64,000 nucleotides of DNA from Podarcis pityusensis. Its lineage: Eukaryota. Positions 1,184 to 61,000 of this stretch are shown here, in pieces (positions within the stretch are counted from its first letter, which is position 1; each line of letters opens with the position of its first letter). Location: NCBI GenBank assembly GCA_964106645.2, contig OZ067049.1; one strand, given 5' to 3'. The position numbers are program-made.

Positions 1184-4100
1184 CGACCCCCACCCCATCC
1201 CAGTCCGCACCCCCGGCTCTTCTCTCACTCAGCATTACCGCCCCCCTTCGCCAGTGCGGGCGAGGAGAAGCGAGGCTCTCCCCCTGCCAGTCTCCGGCCA
1301 CCTTCGCCATCACCCTTCCCATATTTCCCTAGGGCCTCGACCAAAAATTCAACCCAACGCTCCCATTCCATATCGGGGGGGAAAGAGAAAGAGAGAGAGA
1401 GTTAAATAAATTTACGAGGCTAGAACCCATTAATTGGGCAATAAAAAGTTTTATGAGACTCATTTACATACAATGCCACGGGCTTTCTGCGCAATGGCGC
1501 CGCTTGCTCTAATTAAAAGCAGGCAGGCAGGCAGGGCAGGCGCGCGCGCGCTCCTTGCGTGGAAGTTGCCCCCGCACCCGCGTGGAAGTTGCCATTCGCC
1601 TGCTTGGCAGCGCTTTCAATCCAACGCCCCCCCCCTCCGCCCGGCCTTCCCCGCCCGCATCTCGGTTTTGTCCCCCCCCCCCTTCCTTCCTTCCTTCCTT
1701 CCTTCCTCCCCCATACCTGAAGACCTCATCCAGGGGTATATCCGGAAATTACTCTCCGCCTGGCTGTGCAGGTTGCTGTCCTCCGCTTTGTCACAGCTGG
1801 GCTTGGTTAAGTCATTGCAAAGGACGGGAATGTTCTGATCAAAAGAGGAGCAATGCAGGTTGTAGGCATCGGAGCCCAGGCTGTATCCGGAAGAGAACGG
1901 GCTTTGATATATGGTGCTGTTCACGTTGTACAAGGCAGGCATGGAGGAGGTGAACGCGCTAGCGCCTGGTCCATAGCCGCTTCTCTGCGAGTTGGTAGCA
2001 AAGGAGCAAGACGTGGGCTCCGCATTTTGGAAGAGAGAAGCAGCCCCCGTCGTATATTTGCTAAAAAGAGCGTTCACATAATACGAAGAACTCATAATTT
2101 TGACCGGTGATTTGTGGTCCGGTAGGCTTCCGTGTCGGTTTTACGAGGTAGCGTGATATATGATAACATTACACCCCCAGATTTACACCAAACCCCATTT
2201 TCTTTTGGACTGAGCTGCCTCCACCACGTGACCAGTCATATGACCCCATCCTCCAATCTCCTCCTGCATCACAGGTGGTATAGATCAGGGTGGCTCACAA
2301 GGTCCTATGATGGAAGGGGAAGAGGATCGAGCCGACGCCTGGCCGATTCGAAGGCGAGGGGGAGACTTGGCCGCTCGGGCAGCTCCAACGGGGCCCGGGT
2401 TCCCGGAGCGACTCCGGATAAAGCCGAGGGAGCGCCGAGATCAGCCCCGAGGCAGAGGGAAGCTAGAATAAGAAACGTCAACCAGTGTTTTGAAATACAC
2501 ACTTTCCTCTTTGCATCTTTATCCTCTCTACCCCCATTCTCCTCGTCTTTTTTTTGTCTTTTAAGGGGAGGAAAAAGCGTTTCTGTTCTGCTCCTGCATA
2601 TACCCCACTCCTCAGTCATATTTCCTGCAGAGCTGGAAATAAACCACAAACACAACTCTGAGTTTCCATGTATGTTTCCTGTTTGTTTTTCTTGTTTCTT
2701 ATCTCTCTCCGCCTTTCAGCTCCTCCATATTCCGAAAGGGGAGGGGTAGAGCTGCGGGAGGGAAAGTACATTTAAAAAAAAAAAAAAAACAAAGGCAAGG
2801 TGCCCATAAAAATGCCCCCATAGTAAAAACAACCACCACCATTATGCAGGATGTGTTATCTGCGTCTGTCTATCTCAAGTGTGTGTGTGTGTGTCTGAAT
2901 GAACTCATTTGGCAAATCCTTCTGTATCCTGCTCTCATTTATTTTTCCTCAGGAAAGGAAAGAGTGAAATATTTATATGAGAGGCTTCCCAATTTGCTCG
3001 CAGATTTATTAAGATATTGACAGACATATTCGGCTAATCGCTGCTGGCGAGATGAGTGAAGGGTTGCTAAATACGTGTTCTATCTTCTCTCTCTCCCTCT
3101 TTTGCCAAATTCTCTTCCTCAGCAACAAAACACAAATAGAGAAAAAGAACAGTATATCTAAGGGAGGACGGGTGGGTATCTTTCCTAAAAAGAAAGGGGA
3201 GGAGAAGAAGAAGAGGAAGAGGAAGAAGAAGAAGACGAAGAAGAAGAAGAAAGATGAAGGCATGTGTCTACTTTTGCCTGTTCCTCTTACTCCAGGAAGG
3301 TTTATATCCAGGAGGGAGTTTTGTTTTGTTTTGTTTTTCGGTGATCATGCAGCCGGTCTGCCTTTACTAGTGCTGATTTCTTCTATCCATTAGCATGCAT
3401 ATTTCAGCCACCCCCCCCCAAAAAAAAATGATACAGTGGGAAATAAAATAAAAACAAACGGACTTTCAGCACCTCTTATTTTAAAAAAAAAAATCGAAGA
3501 GACTTGGGATGCGGACTCAGGTTTCTTTGTTTTATCCTAGCTTCTTCTTTTTCCTCCCCCGCCCCCGGGGTAAATAAATACCTACCTCTGGTTTTATGTG
3601 GTGGTGTTGGTGGTGTCGAGAGCGGTGGCATATGTGTGTATGTGTGTGTGTGTGTCCCAGATCTCGGATAAGGCAGCTCCTTAATTTCTAAACACTCGGC
3701 CCCCACCAAGCAATAAGAGGACACGCCATTGAGGATGTTGCGCCCTACCCTTCCTTTAAAACGGATCGTAAAACTAGTTTCCTTCCCTCAGACGGGGGAG
3801 TTTTGGTAAAGACAGCTTTTACTGCCCTGCTATATTGCACATCATAAACTGGAAGGAGGACAATGAGATTGCCCCGGAAATTCTCCCTTTAGATTATAGT
3901 GTTTGGTATCCTGTGTGTACAAAGAGGTTCTCACCAGTTTAAAATTATGCCTGGCCCATATTTCGCAGGGACACATTTTGGCAACCCAGGGGAGGGAAGG
4001 AGGGGGGGAGGGCTCAGCTAAGGGGCCTGAGGAGGCCCGGGTGCAACAGGGGCTGGAGAGAGGTGTTGGTGTACAGTTTTGGAAAGGAAGAACATTATTA

Positions 4101-58000: not shown

Positions 58001-61000
58001 GGTGATAGCCCAGGGCTGGTAGCCTTCCATGGGCAGCATCGAGTCGTGCCTGGGCTCCCCGGGGCCTCCGATGGTGGGCACCACGGGCATATCCAGGTAG
58101 CCCGGCACCGGCTGGTAGGGTCCGGCGGCGTAGCCCTGGTAGAAGGCGAATTCCTTGGCCCGGGAGGTGAAGTCCTCTCCGGCGGCGCCTACCGACGTGT
58201 CCATGTACTTGTCGGCGAAGGAGGCGGCGGGCTGCGCGCACGACTTGAGCGCGGCATTGTGGTGGCTCATGCGGCACGGGAAGTAGCCGCTGCCGAAGTA
58301 GCCGTAGGGCAGCGCGGCCGGCCCAGACGAGCTCTGCACGGCGGCCGAGCAGGGACTGCACTGCTTGACAGATGCCCCGGGCTCAGCCATGCCCGCGGCG
58401 GCGGCGGCGGGCGCCTCGCTCGACGTGTAGGCGGCGGCGCTGCCCGGGGCGGCGAGCGAGGCTGGGTGAGCCATCAGGTTCCGGCACTGGTTGGCCGCGG
58501 CGAAGTTGGTGCCTGCGGCCGCCGCCGCCGCCGCGTGGAAACCGGCTTCCATGTTCTTGTTGATCTCCTCCAGGCTGTTGTCGTAGAGGAACATGACGGG
58601 CTCGATCCAGCGGGGATGGAGGAGCACGGAGGCTGTCATAGCCCGATCCGCATTGAGACTAGTGGCTCTTTTTTAAAAGCCCCAAAGACTGAAAAAAGAG
58701 ATACTAAATCTCCCAGACTTGACCAGGGCTGACGCGCCAGTGTCGCGCCACCACGGCGCTCATTGGACCGCCCTCCCCCACGTGATATGCAAAGCAGCTG
58801 ATAAACATCTGAGGAATAAAGGGCAGATAATTAAATAATGGCCTAATCGCGCCACGGCTTGGAATGCCAGCGGCGGACGGCACTCGCGCGCGCGCGGCCG
58901 CCCCTTCCACTCACGACTTTGCGTGGCGAGGGAGGCGCCAACGCGGGTGCAAAGGAAGAGCAGGTATTTCGCCTCCCTCCCCACCCCCCGCTCTGCAAAG
59001 TGTGGATTTCTTCCCTCTCCCCCTCCCCCTCCACTCCCTCTAGCACATTGCCTCTAGGAAATTATTTCAACAGGCTCTCACTCCACGGTCTTAATGTCAA
59101 AGCCTTCTGACTTTCTGTATTTTTCTTGCTCATCAACTGGTGGTTGGTGGTGTGTGTGGTTTTTTTTGGTTTTGGTTTTTCCTGGGGAACGTCCCGCCCT
59201 CCCCTCCCCCTCCCTCACTAGACTTAAACTCGTATTTTCTCGTGTTATAGGACTGCAAACTGCTTGTACCATTACGAGGTCAAAACACCTCTTTCTAAAA
59301 CCACAACGCCTGTCAACGCCGGGTATTTCACATCTTCTCCTGACCTGTCCAGATACACACACACACACAAACAAACAAACAAACAAACATATATGTGCGT
59401 TTTGAATGATATCACTCCTCCTTTGGACAAATACATCTGAAAAAGAGGAGCAGGATCCAGAACGTAGACAGCAGATTTGCAACGGCAGGGTGTGGAAGAG
59501 AAAGAGTTAAGCAGACCTCAGAAATGAATCAGCCTCCCTGTATTATTTGTTATTGCAACAATAAAACGCGCAGCCTACAATTTTTTGCTTGAATCATCCC
59601 CGACCATAAAAATATTGCGTGGGATTATTTATTGTCTAAGAGTGACCATAGGGACTCCCCCCTTATCATCGTTAATAACAAACCCTTTGCACCGAAACGC
59701 TCTGCGTAAGCACATGCACCAACACGGAAAGCCATTATGTCAATAAAAGGGCACTTCTAAAAGGGCATTTTCTATTAATTATTAATTAATTAATTAATTA
59801 ATTAATAATTCATTGTTATTATCATTGGCACTCTATTACGAGTATATGTTATGCAGACACGACTGCTTAAGGATTTATATGCATCCTGCAAAATGCAAGT
59901 AGAAGTTAATTCATGGTAATATAATCACGCGAGAGAGTGGGGATTTGAGAGTTACTGACCTCCGACCACAATGAAGGGAGTAAACTTGTCTTTGTAAACA
60001 AAAGCAAAAGCAAGGAAAAACAAAACAAAACAAAAAACCCACCACACCCAAACCTCTGTCTGTTTGTTTGATGCACGCTTGACAGGTATTTATGAACTAT
60101 TGTGCGAGCGGTTGGGGCTTGCAACATTGTTTTCGCTGCAGTGCTACCAGGATGGAATTCTAAATCGTGCATTGTTTGGAGAGACTCCCAGTCCCTTGTA
60201 TGTAGGAAGGAACAGATCTGTCAGTTCGCTTGCCTGTCCCCCAGTCTGCCCTGCCCTGGCCCTTTTCGCTGAGAATGGCATGCGACAGAGGGGACTCTTG
60301 TCACCGGACAATATTTCAGCGAATTCTCTTAATTGTAACCAATAAAGGGCTCCTTTCCTCTCCAACCCCAGCCTCCTTCTCCTCCTGGATGGTCTTTTCC
60401 GCATTCCTCCTCATGGCCAAAGGCAAATATTTATTCCTGGCATATTTTCATATCCCCACCCACCACCCCGCTTTCCAGGCTTCAGCCGTTAGGAAAAATG
60501 TAGGCTTCGAAATCTTTCCATTATTTGGCAGGGAGGGGAGGGGAGGGGGAGCTTCCCTTCGCCTTCCCTTTCCTTTTGGGGAATCTCATTCTTTCAAAAC
60601 GCCTTGCAGCGGAGCCAAAACACAGCACACTCAGCCTTCCCCAACTCATTCAATTCATTAACCTACCCCAGCAAAAGGCTAACAGGGCAGCGCTCTTTTA
60701 GGGAGGGAGGGGAGACACGACTAGAGGCCAAGGTCAAGTTGAAAGCGGCAACCTAGCCAATGCCAGGATGGTCATTCAGAGCCGGAGGAGACTTGTCTGA
60801 TTTGCTACAAAGAAGAAGAAGAGGGGGGCAGCCAATTACTCCTTTCCAACCCCCCCCCCGTGTGTGTCCTTTTCGGCCTTTCTGTCTGTCACTTTCCAGA
60901 CAAACCCTTCCCTCTTCTGGTTACGGAGAACTTTGTGTGCAACTGTGGCTCTTTGAGGGTGAAGCACGATGCTAAACAAAAAAACAAACAAGCAAATAAA

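What the first reader, a model, noticed from the sequence alone, without database searches (positions are those of the whole stretch)
2092..58653. Cluster-wide pattern: all five HoxA genes carry a start-proximal uORF
Seen: HOXA7 (ATGA overlap), HOXA9 (MKSAVS*, about 60 nt upstream), HOXA10 (overlapping out-of-frame uORF starting 16 nt upstream), HOXA11 (stop 4 nt upstream) and HOXA13 (ATGA overlap). Established: translational control through Hox 5' leaders has been proposed (IRES/TIE model, uORF-based inhibition for Hoxa3 and Hoxa11) and is disputed. Inference: a simple uORF/reinitiation layer spanning the posterior cluster could uncouple Hox mRNA from protein domains, and may depend on reinitiation factors (DENR/MCTS1, eIF2D).
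Basis: partly seen in the sequence, partly recalled or inferred. Interest (0 to 1): 0.75.

Follow-up and report, generated by a model that had tools for sequence, protein, structure and literature searches.

The report
Upstream ORFs in lizard HoxA leaders
All five short upstream reading frames are really there in this lizard HoxA cluster, but five out of five is what chance predicts, and the two that match known conserved elements (HOXA9, HOXA11) were already described in 2022.

Summary
The window is the HOXA7-HOXA13 part of a lacertid lizard HoxA cluster, not human: HOXA13 exon 1 is 100% identical to Hox-A13 of Podarcis lilfordi. They are not more than chance: 69.6% of 1819 ATGs in the window have another ATG within 81 nt upstream, so 5 of 5 has P = 0.16; dinucleotide shuffles give 0.17. 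The HOXA9 uORF (7 codons) and the HOXA11 uORF (12 codons) match in length and start context the conserved, ribosome-occupied, reporter-tested uORFs of Ivanov et al. 2022 (PMC8892498). That survey covered all 39 Hox genes and listed 13 with conserved uORFs; Hoxa7, Hoxa10 and Hoxa13 are not among them. Whether those three uATGs lie in lizard mRNAs could not be tested. The published mechanism is weak-context uAUG capture tuned by eIF1/eIF5, not DENR-dependent reinitiation, and none of the five uORFs fits the published DENR target class. Verdict: the real part is already known and the cluster-wide claim is unsupported. Two side observations: a two-step stop-start relay in the HOXA7 leader, and a widely annotated in-frame upstream ATG inside the HOXA11 uORF.

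The parts
1616..2095 (-). HOXA7 exon-1 ORF, main ATG at 2095 (context A at -3, A at +4)
2092..2169 (-). HOXA7 uORF 2: uATG 2169 (-74; G at -3, T at +4), 25 codons, TGA overlapping the main ATG (ATGA)
2169..2198 (-). HOXA7 uORF 1: uATG 2198 (-103; A at -3, G at +4), 9 codons, TAA whose last A is the A of uATG 2169 (TAATG). Together with uORF 2 it forms a two-step stop-start relay.
   Evidence: relay frequency among all ATGs in the window is 16 of 1815
11930..12568 (-). HOXA9 exon-1 ORF, main ATG at 12568 (T at -3, G at +4)
   Evidence: Pfam Hox9_act covers residues 3-184, E = 1.8e-72
12629..12649 (-). HOXA9 uORF: uATG 12649 (-81; T at -3, A at +4), MKSAVS plus TAA = 7 codons, 60 nt before the main ATG
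   Evidence: Matches the published Hoxa9 uORF: 7 codons, no purine at -3, no G at +4 (PMC8892498).
18096..18174 (-). mir-196 precursor between HOXA9 and HOXA10 (context marker)
   Evidence: Rfam RF00256, 77.7 bits against a gathering score of 55.4
22813..23883 (-). HOXA10 exon-1 ORF, main ATG at 23883 (G at -3, T at +4)
   Evidence: 97% identical to Hox-A10 of Lacerta agilis. 33 of 40 named orthologues begin at the equivalent Met.
23585..23899 (-). HOXA10 overlapping out-of-frame uORF: uATG 23899 (-16; A at -3, T at +4), 104 codons, ends 299 nt into the CDS
37411..38247 (-). HOXA11 exon-1 ORF with three in-frame ATGs: 38247 (C at -3, C at +4), 38223 (C at -3, A at +4), 38220 (A at -3, G at +4)
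   Evidence: Pfam DUF3528, E = 7e-57. 96% identical to Homeobox A11 of Podarcis muralis. N-termini of 40 named orthologues.
38228..38263 (-). HOXA11 uORF: uATG 38263 (A at -3, T at +4), [11 protein letters not shown] plus TAG = 12 codons. It ends 4 nt before ATG 38223 and spans in-frame ATG 38247.
   Evidence: Matches the published Hoxa11 uORF: 12 codons, A at -3, no G at +4 (PMC8892498).
38984..41543 (+). HOXA11-AS1 conserved regions 2, 4 and 5 (38984-39174, 40306-40535, 41332-41543), antisense lncRNA upstream of HOXA11
   Evidence: Rfam RF02138, RF02140, RF02141, all above their gathering scores
57908..58639 (-). HOXA13 exon-1 ORF, main ATG at 58639 (G at -3, A at +4)
   Evidence: Pfam HoxA13_N. 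100% identity over 235 aa to Hox-A13 of Podarcis lilfordi.
58636..58653 (-). HOXA13 uORF: uATG 58653 (-14; T at -3, C at +4), MRIGL plus TGA overlapping the main ATG (ATGA)

Best explanation
This is the posterior HoxA cluster of a lacertid lizard. Two of the five upstream ORFs, the 7-codon HOXA9 uORF and the 12-codon HOXA11 uORF, are the lizard orthologues of the deeply conserved inhibitory Hox uORFs already described in mouse and human. They most likely work as published. A uAUG in weak context captures a fraction of scanning 43S complexes. Most of the rest scan past it to the main AUG, and the captured fraction rises or falls with global start-codon stringency (the eIF1/eIF5 balance), giving a modest (about 1.2- to 2.5-fold) tuning of Hox protein output. 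The other three (HOXA7, HOXA10, HOXA13) are uATGs at the density that base composition predicts. They are either neutral sequence at or upstream of the transcription start, or lineage-specific uORFs of the same weak-context kind. There is no evidence for a cluster-wide reinitiation layer. Shown here: the sequences, their contexts, the chance expectation, and the match to the published descriptions. Taken from the literature: conservation, ribosome occupancy and reporter effects in mammals. Inferred: that the lizard transcription start sites are positionally like the mouse ones.
For: The uORF coordinates, lengths and contexts match the published description exactly. Hoxa9: 7 codons, no purine at -3, no G at +4. 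Hoxa11: 12 codons, A at -3, no G at +4. Both are conserved from mammals to fish, carry ribosome footprints, and respond to eIF1/eIF5 overexpression; mutating the uAUG to AAA derepresses the reporter more than 2-fold for Hoxa11 and 1.2-fold (not significant) for Hoxa9 (PMC8892498). Mouse leader lengths (Hoxa9 83-85 nt, Hoxa11 53-91 nt; Hoxa7 about 112 nt, Hoxa11 about 90 nt, PMC9456764) would include the lizard uATGs at -81 (A9), -43 relative to ATG 38220 (A11) and -74/-103 (A7). The window is a lizard, so it independently agrees with the published conservation for A9 and A11. Chance: P(5 of 5) = 0.16 from 1819 window ATGs and 0.17 from shuffles. In mouse cells 6800 of 9266 expressed transcripts carry some uORF sequence, near-cognate starts included (PMC11790910). 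All five uATGs lack G at +4. Hoxa7, Hoxa10 and Hoxa13 are absent from the 13 conserved-uORF Hox genes and occur 0 times in that paper's main text.
Against: No lizard transcription start, RNA or ribosome data were available, so none of the five uATGs is shown to be in an mRNA of this species. uAUGs are normally depleted within 100 nt of the CDS, and overlapping uORFs even more so (PMC7889888). Neutral density in true leaders would therefore itself be a mild excess, and random genomic ATGs are a lenient null. The narrower classes chosen after seeing the data are nominally uncommon: stop abutting the start in 3 of 5 (P = 0.033), ATGA overlap in 2 of 5 (P = 0.016), and the HOXA7 relay (16 of 1815 ATGs). 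The paralogues Hoxc10, Hoxd10, Hoxd11 and Hoxc13 do have conserved uORFs, so uORFs in HOXA10 and HOXA13 would not be out of character. The reasons why Hoxa7, Hoxa10 and Hoxa13 failed the published criteria are in supplementary tables I could not open.
Confidence: 0.75

Rival explanations
1. One reading: a deliberate uORF/reinitiation layer across all five posterior HoxA genes. Ribosomes translate the uORF and must reinitiate at the main AUG with the help of DENR/MCTS1 or eIF2D.
For: The HOXA9 uORF (6 aa, 60-nt spacer) has a geometry that permits reinitiation. HOXA7 and HOXA13 have ATGA stop-start overlaps, and HOXA7 has a two-step relay whose first uAUG is in strong context (A at -3, G at +4). 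In mouse cells the uORF lengths of DENR-sensitive transcripts resemble those of all transcripts (PMC11790910), so length alone does not exclude it.
Against: The HOXA10 uORF overlaps the CDS by 299 nt, so reinitiation at the main AUG is impossible; Alghoul et al. make the same argument for Hoxa3. All five reader uATGs are in suboptimal context, whereas weak-context uORFs did not confer DENR dependence, and in human cells dependence was essentially limited to 1-2-codon uORFs (PMC5473865). eIF2D knockdown did not affect the Hoxa11 TIE. The published Hoxa9 and Hoxa11 uORF effects follow eIF1/eIF5 stringency. The search DENR + reinitiation + Hox found 32 papers, 15 listed; none of the 15 by title, and none of the three I read in passages, reports DENR-dependent Hox translation. 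The count of 5 of 5 is at chance.
Confidence: 0.07
2. A lineage-specific extension: in lacertids (or squamates more widely) the HOXA7, HOXA10 and HOXA13 uATGs are transcribed and act as additional weak-context inhibitory uORFs. The whole posterior HoxA cluster would then be sensitive to start-codon stringency in this lineage.
For: All three have suboptimal contexts like the published class. Inr-like motifs at -118 (A7), -53 (A13) and -27 (A10), upstream of the uATGs, could be start sites; the A7 motif fits the roughly 112-nt mouse leader. Ivanov et al. state that several other Hox genes have non-conserved weak-context uORFs that could give species-specific regulation. Paralogues c10, d10 and c13 have conserved uORFs.
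Against: There are no transcript or conservation data for lizards. The uATG density equals the neutral expectation. The A13 T/A-rich run at -39..-30 could be a TATA element that places the start downstream of the uATG, and an A10 start at the Inr-like motif would leave the uATG only about 9 nt from the cap (inference). An A(-3) overlapping uORF 16 nt upstream of HOXA10 would be strongly inhibitory, and that type is the most selected against.
Confidence: 0.2
3. The long-leader IRES/TIE model: these genes are translated from leaders of several hundred to over a thousand nt, in which the start-proximal uATGs are only a few of many and an IRES bypasses them.
For: Koch et al. 2025 report long-leader Hoxa9 isoform signal in posterior somites by smFISH (PMC12048685). 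The lizard has 14 uATGs within 600 nt upstream of HOXA9, which would require some bypass if transcribed.
Against: [quoted passage not shown] The proposed IRES regions have promoter activity. No ATG-stop like the mouse Hoxa11 TIE start-stop exists within 600 nt upstream of lizard HOXA11; Alghoul et al. call that element species-specific.
Confidence: 0.05

Closest known systems
Conserved weak-context inhibitory uORFs of Hox mRNAs (Ivanov et al., PNAS 2022, PMC8892498)
   Same: The HOXA9 and HOXA11 uORFs here have the same codon number (7 and 12) and the same -3/+4 contexts as published, and they lie within the published leader lengths.
   Different: HOXA7, HOXA10 and HOXA13 are not among the 13 published genes. 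The lizard HOXA11 leader also carries an in-frame ATG (38247) inside the uORF. No lizard transcript or ribosome data exist here.
eIF5 and eIF1 mRNAs as start-codon stringency sensors (as described in PMC8892498)
   Same: Weak-context uAUGs whose use rises when stringency falls, repressing the main ORF.
   Different: There is no autoregulatory loop, because Hox proteins are not initiation factors. The effect sizes are smaller: 1.2- to 2.5-fold against about 5-fold for the three eIF5 uORFs.
Hoxa11 TIE start-stop plus stem-loop, and the Hoxa3 TIE uORF (Alghoul et al., eLife 2021, PMC8172242)
   Same: uAUG-based inhibition in Hox leaders. The Hoxa3 uORF overlaps the CDS, as the lizard HOXA10 uORF does.
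   Different: The TIE elements lie far upstream in the disputed long leaders. No ATG-stop exists within 600 nt upstream of lizard HOXA11. The start-proximal uORFs discussed here are different elements.
DENR-MCTS1-dependent strong-context uORFs (Schleich et al. 2017, PMC5473865; Meurs et al. 2025, PMC11790910)
   Same: Short uORFs followed by a main ORF. Only the HOXA7 -103 uORF has a strong context.
   Different: The five reader uORFs have suboptimal contexts and 5-104 sense codons. One overlaps the CDS, and three end within -7 to +4 nt of the start.
Termination-reinitiation at overlapping stop-start signals (AUGA/UAAUG) in calicivirus and influenza B bicistronic RNAs (recalled, from no call)
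   Same: The ATGA overlaps in HOXA7 and HOXA13 and the TAATG overlap in HOXA7.
   Different: The viral cases need an upstream 18S-rRNA-complementary tethering motif, which I did not test here. No cellular Hox example is known to me.

Membership tests
Conserved weak-context inhibitory Hox uORFs (Ivanov et al. 2022) | AUG-initiated uORF of the published length in the leader of that Hox gene | tested here: met
   HOXA9: 7 codons. HOXA11: 12 codons. Not applicable to HOXA7, HOXA10 or HOXA13, which are not listed.
Conserved weak-context inhibitory Hox uORFs (Ivanov et al. 2022) | Suboptimal uAUG context (no purine at -3 and/or no G at +4), as published for each gene | tested here: met
   A9: T/A. 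A11: A/T. Both are identical to the published description. A7 -74 (G/T), A10 (A/T) and A13 (T/C) are also suboptimal.
Conserved weak-context inhibitory Hox uORFs (Ivanov et al. 2022) | uATG lies downstream of the major cap-mapped transcription start | not testable with these tools
   No lizard CAGE or RNA data. By position, the A9 (-81), A11 (-43) and A7 (-74, -103) uATGs fall within the mouse leader lengths of 83-85, 53-91 and about 112 nt. I found no leader length for Hoxa10 or Hoxa13 in the text I could read.
Conserved weak-context inhibitory Hox uORFs (Ivanov et al. 2022) | Present in at least 90% of placental mammals, and beyond for the deep class | not testable with these tools
   No vertebrate DNA collection was on hand. 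The literature says yes for Hoxa9 and Hoxa11 (mammals to fish) and does not list Hoxa7, Hoxa10 or Hoxa13. A lizard carrying the A9 and A11 uORFs agrees with that.
Conserved weak-context inhibitory Hox uORFs (Ivanov et al. 2022) | Ribosome footprints on the uORF | not testable with these tools
   Reported for mouse Hoxa9 and Hoxa11. No data for this species.
DENR-MCTS1-dependent uORFs | Strong Kozak context at the uAUG | tested here: not met
   None of the five reader uATGs has both a purine at -3 and G at +4. Only the extra HOXA7 -103 uATG does. Criterion from PMC5473865.
DENR-MCTS1-dependent uORFs | Very short uORF (1, at most 2, codons in human cells) | tested here: not met
   Sense-codon lengths are 25, 6, 104, 11 and 5. 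In mouse cells, however, the length distribution of DENR targets did not differ from that of all transcripts, so this feature is weaker.
Hoxa11 TIE start-stop element | [quoted passage not shown] | tested here: not met
   None of the 5 uATGs within 600 nt upstream of ATG 38247 is followed directly by a stop. I did not look for the stem-loop. The authors call the start-stop species-specific.
Viral-type termination-reinitiation | Overlapping stop-start (AUGA or UAAUG) | tested here: met
   HOXA7 has TAATG and ATGA; HOXA13 has ATGA. 149 of 1815 window ATGs have such an overlap with an open uORF, so it is common.
Viral-type termination-reinitiation | Upstream tethering motif complementary to 18S rRNA | not tested
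   The motif is recalled only; no reference sequence came from a tool.

The most novel reading that the evidence does not exclude
In lacertid lizards, and perhaps in sauropsids generally, every posterior HoxA mRNA carries a transcribed weak-context uORF that ends at or inside the main start. This includes a two-step stop-start relay in HOXA7 (TAATG then ATGA) and, in HOXA11, a uORF interleaved with an alternative in-frame start that is annotated from amphibians to lizards but in none of the three mammals sampled. Hox protein dosage along the posterior axis would then be set collectively by start-codon stringency, with lineage-specific differences from mammals.
Probability: 0.1. Interest if true: 0.5.

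Novelty: already known. Interest (0 to 1): 0.2.

Why it matters
Translational control of Hox mRNAs is an active dispute between the IRES/TIE model and the model of short capped leaders with uORFs. This lizard window adds a small independent data point for the second view: the published Hoxa9 and Hoxa11 uORFs are kept in a squamate, codon for codon in length and with the same weak contexts. It does not reveal a new layer. If the three extra uORFs proved to be transcribed and conserved in sauropsids, they would extend a known mechanism to more genes, but they would not establish a new one.

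Tried and rejected
1. Cross-species DNA conservation of the five leaders could not be tested. I spent no scan, so this stayed unchecked.

2. Supplementary tables S1 and S2 of PMC8892498 give the CAGE peaks for all 39 Hox genes and the scored uORFs. They would say why Hoxa7, Hoxa10 and Hoxa13 were not listed. Supplements were closed and I did not see them.

3. Inferring start sites from promoter motifs was inconclusive. E-boxes lie at -135 (A7), -157 (A11) and -145 (A13), a CCAAT box at -150 (A9) and -127 (A13), and Inr-like motifs at several distances. 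A T/A run at -39..-30 of HOXA13 could place the start on either side of the uATG.

4. The Hoxa11 TIE-type start-stop is absent within 600 nt upstream of HOXA11.

5. The DENR target class does not fit.

6. Literature on uORFs in the three unlisted genes: uORF + Hoxa13 gave 10 papers (9 listed), uORF + Hoxa10 gave 14 (12 listed), uORF + Hoxa7 gave 5 (4 listed). Judged by titles and abstract starts, and by passages read in PMC9456764, PMC12048685, PMC13060157 and the RAPPL-Seq preprint, none describes a start-proximal uORF in these genes. I did not read the other listed papers.

7. I used published transcriptome-wide figures instead.

Full report
What the window is. The window has 64,000 bases and one 132-nt run of N at 421-552, which I left untouched. 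Five Hox exon-1 ORFs lie on the minus strand. Pfam assigns Hox9_act to the ORF starting at 12568, DUF3528 (the Hox11 N-terminal family) to the one at 38247 and HoxA13_N to the one at 58639, and finds homeodomains in the second exons of HOXA9 and HOXA13. Rfam finds mir-196 at 18096-18174 (-) and HOXA11-AS1 conserved regions 2, 4 and 5 at 38984-41543 (+). I searched exon-1 translations one exon at a time. HOXA13 exon 1 is 100% identical over 235 aa to Hox-A13 of Podarcis lilfordi, and the next-best named hits are other squamates at 84-92%. HOXA11 exon 1 is 96% identical to Homeobox A11 of Podarcis muralis. HOXA10 exon 1 is 97% identical to Hox-A10 of Lacerta agilis. I therefore take the contig to be from a lacertid lizard, not from a human. 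HOXA7 is named from its position in the cluster only.

Check of the observation.
- HOXA7: uATG 2169, 25 codons, TGA overlapping ATG 2095.
- HOXA9: uATG 12649, MKSAVS*, 60 nt before ATG 12568.
- HOXA10: uATG 23899, 16 nt upstream, out of frame, 104 codons, ending 299 nt into the CDS.
- HOXA11: uATG 38263, 11 codons plus TAG ending at 38228, 4 nt before ATG 38223.
- HOXA13: uATG 58653, MRIGL*, TGA overlapping ATG 58639.

The HOXA11 description needs a correction. There are three in-frame ATGs (38247, 38223, 38220), and 38247 lies inside the uORF. I picked 40 named, non-human orthologues from the 120 rows listed, dropping all unnamed rows and most birds, mammals and teleosts. Of these, 17 are annotated from an upstream in-frame Met with an MR/MQ-type extension: lizards, geckos, a turtle, frogs, caecilians and salamanders. 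A further 14 start MM-DFDE, 4 start M-DFDE, 4 snakes start M-DLDE, and one chimaera has a different extension. For HOXA10, 33 of 40 named orthologues start at the Met equivalent to 23883, 6 at the second Met and 1 elsewhere (counted from the N-termini printed). So 23883 is the conserved start.

Is it more than chance? No.
- Among 1819 ATGs on both strands of the window, 69.6% have another ATG within 81 nt upstream, the distance of the farthest reader uATG. That gives P(5 of 5) = 0.16. For 1031 GC-matched ATGs the figures are 66.8% and 0.13.
- 5000 dinucleotide-preserving shuffles of each gene's own 81-nt leader give P(at least one uATG) of 0.68, 0.77, 0.96, 0.93 and 0.37, with a product of 0.17.
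- Classes defined after seeing the data are nominally rarer. A stop within -10..+4 of the start occurs at 16.2% of ATGs, so P(at least 3 of 5) = 0.033. An ATGA-overlap uORF occurs at 4.1%, so P(at least 2 of 5) = 0.016. Abutting or overlapping uORFs occur at 44.4%, so P(at least 4 of 5) = 0.13. None of these is corrected for the choice of class.
- A fairer null would be real leaders, where uAUGs are depleted, most strongly within 100 nt of the CDS and for overlapping uORFs (PMC7889888, passages). On the other hand, uORF genes are enriched for transcription factors (same call). In mouse fibroblasts, 3430 of 9266 expressed transcripts have a translated uORF and 3370 an untranslated one, near-cognate starts included (PMC11790910, passages).

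What is already known. A search for Hoxa9 + IRES + uORF (40 papers, 25 listed) found Ivanov et al., PNAS 2022 (PMC8892498). I read its outline, Results parts 1-2, the Methods section on uORF identification and the whole Discussion.
- They found 13 genes with conserved uORFs: Hoxa1, a9, a11, b9, c4, c8 and c9 (mammals to fish); a6, c10, d10 and d11 (mammals to tetrapods); c13 and d1 (mammals only).
- The mouse Hoxa9 and Hoxa11 leaders are 83-85 and 53-91 nt, and their uORFs are 7 and 12 codons.
[quoted passage not shown] The Hoxa11 uAUG has A at -3 but no G at +4.
- Both uORFs carry ribosome footprints.
- Mutating the uAUG derepressed a reporter more than 2-fold for Hoxa11 and 1.2-fold (not significant) for Hoxa9.
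- eIF1 or eIF5 overexpression shifted expression as expected for weak-context uAUGs.

The lizard uORFs match in every feature I could compare: 7 codons with T/A for HOXA9, and 12 codons with A/T for HOXA11. Hoxa7, Hoxa10 and Hoxa13 are not in the list and are never named in the main text. The authors note that other Hox genes have non-conserved weak-context uORFs. Akirtava et al. 2022 (PMC9456764, passages) give mouse leaders of 83 nt (Hoxa9), about 112 nt (Hoxa7) and about 90 nt (Hoxa11), and show that the proposed IRES regions are promoters with E-boxes. The dispute continues (PMC12048685 and PMC13060157, passages).

Mechanism. The best-supported reading is the published one. A weak-context uAUG takes a share of scanning complexes, the rest scan through, and the share depends on start-codon stringency.

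The five arrangements cannot share one reinitiation mechanism:
- HOXA9 has a short uORF and a 60-nt spacer, which permits reinitiation.
- HOXA7, HOXA11 and HOXA13 end 7 nt before to 4 nt after the A of the start codon (the HOXA11 stop ends 7 nt before ATG 38220).
- HOXA10 overlaps the CDS, which excludes reinitiation at the main AUG.

If the lizard HOXA9 start site is positionally like the mouse one, the uAUG at -81 would sit only 2-4 nt from the cap. By established scanning rules (recalled) it would then be poorly recognised, which would fit the weak mouse reporter effect. This is inference.

For DENR/MCTS1, human-cell data require a strong context and 1-2 codons (PMC5473865, passages), which none of the five meets. 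Mouse-cell data relax the length rule. eIF2D knockdown did not affect the Hoxa11 element tested by Alghoul et al., which lies in the disputed long leader and includes a species-specific start-stop (PMC8172242, passages). No ATG-stop occurs within 600 nt upstream of lizard HOXA11. Of 32 papers holding DENR, reinitiation and Hox, 15 were listed. None of those 15 by title, and none of the three I read in passages, reports DENR-dependent Hox translation.

The three unlisted genes. Whether uATGs 2169, 23899 and 58653 are in lizard mRNAs is unknown.
- Motifs give only hints.
- An Inr-like motif at -118 of HOXA7, below an E-box at -135, would fit the roughly 112-nt mouse leader and would include both HOXA7 uATGs.
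- HOXA13 has an E-box (-145), a GC box (-134), a CCAAT box (-127), Inr-like motifs at -53 and -23, and a T/A run at -39..-30. The start could therefore fall on either side of the uATG at -14.
- A HOXA10 start at the Inr-like motif at -27 would leave its uATG about 9 nt from the cap.
- Strict literature searches for uORF with each gene name found 10, 14 and 5 papers. By title, abstract start and the passages I read, none describes such a uORF.
- Cross-species DNA comparison could not be done with the collections on hand, and the supplementary tables of PMC8892498 that would explain the exclusions were closed.

Verdict. The sequences are there. The count is at chance level. The two elements that can be tied to evidence are already published, and the proposed reinitiation-factor dependence does not fit their features. 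I rate the finding as already known and of low interest. Two details are worth a note: the HOXA7 stop-start relay, and the in-frame ATG within the HOXA11 uORF.

Noticed in passing
window 2092-2198 (-): The HOXA7 leader holds a two-step stop-start relay. A 9-codon uORF starts at a strong-context uATG (2198; A at -3, G at +4). uATG 2249 opens the same frame. Its TAA stop ends on the A of the next uATG (2169, TAATG), and that 25-codon uORF ends in a TGA overlapping the main ATG (ATGA). Such a relay occurs at 16 of 1815 ATGs in the window. Hoxa7 is not among the published conserved-uORF Hox genes.
   Followed up: partly
window 38220-38263 (-): HOXA11 has three in-frame ATGs. The first (38247, poor context) lies inside the conserved uORF, and the third (38220) has an optimal context. 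17 of 40 named orthologues (amphibians, a turtle, lizards, geckos) are annotated from an upstream in-frame Met with an MR/MQ-type extension of 10-14 residues before DFDE (EFDE in one salamander). None of the three mammals among the 40 (echidna, possum, a rodent) is. The extension frame and the uORF frame share the same nucleotides, so peptide-level similarity may only reflect conservation of the leader.
   Followed up: partly
window 23829-23883 (-): Database annotations of HOXA10 use two starts. 33 of 40 named orthologues begin at the Met equivalent to 23883 and 6 at the second in-frame Met 18 codons downstream, including the Podarcis lilfordi record. The first 17 residues are conserved from ray-finned fish to mammals.
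   Followed up: partly
window 2230, 38377, 58784 (-), approximate: Canonical E-boxes (CACGTG) lie 135-157 nt upstream of the HOXA7, HOXA11 and HOXA13 starts. Akirtava et al. describe USF-type E-boxes as promoter elements of mouse Hoxa3, a5, a7, a9 and a11; Hoxa13 was among the leaders they reported as lacking one.
   Followed up: no
window 23883 and 38247 (-): HOXA10 and HOXA11 each have an out-of-frame uATG exactly 16 nt upstream of an in-frame start (23883; 38247), both reading C-ATG-TT with A at -3. This is probably coincidence and was not tested.
   Followed up: no
window 12707-13156 (-): There are 14 ATGs within 600 nt upstream of HOXA9, including two ATG-TGA start-stops at 13104 and 12734. 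Akirtava et al. count up to 14 uORFs in the longer mouse Hoxa9-region transcripts. All but the -81 uATG lie beyond a mouse-like 83-85-nt leader.
   Followed up: no
window 24030-24075 (-) and 22813-23883 (-): A (CA)n-type dinucleotide repeat lies about 150-190 nt upstream of the HOXA10 start. HOXA10 exon 1 encodes long Gly and His/Gln runs.
   Followed up: no
window 421-552: A run of 132 N, left as it is. It lies below HOXA7 exon 1, where the HOXA7 intron or second exon would be expected.
   Followed up: no
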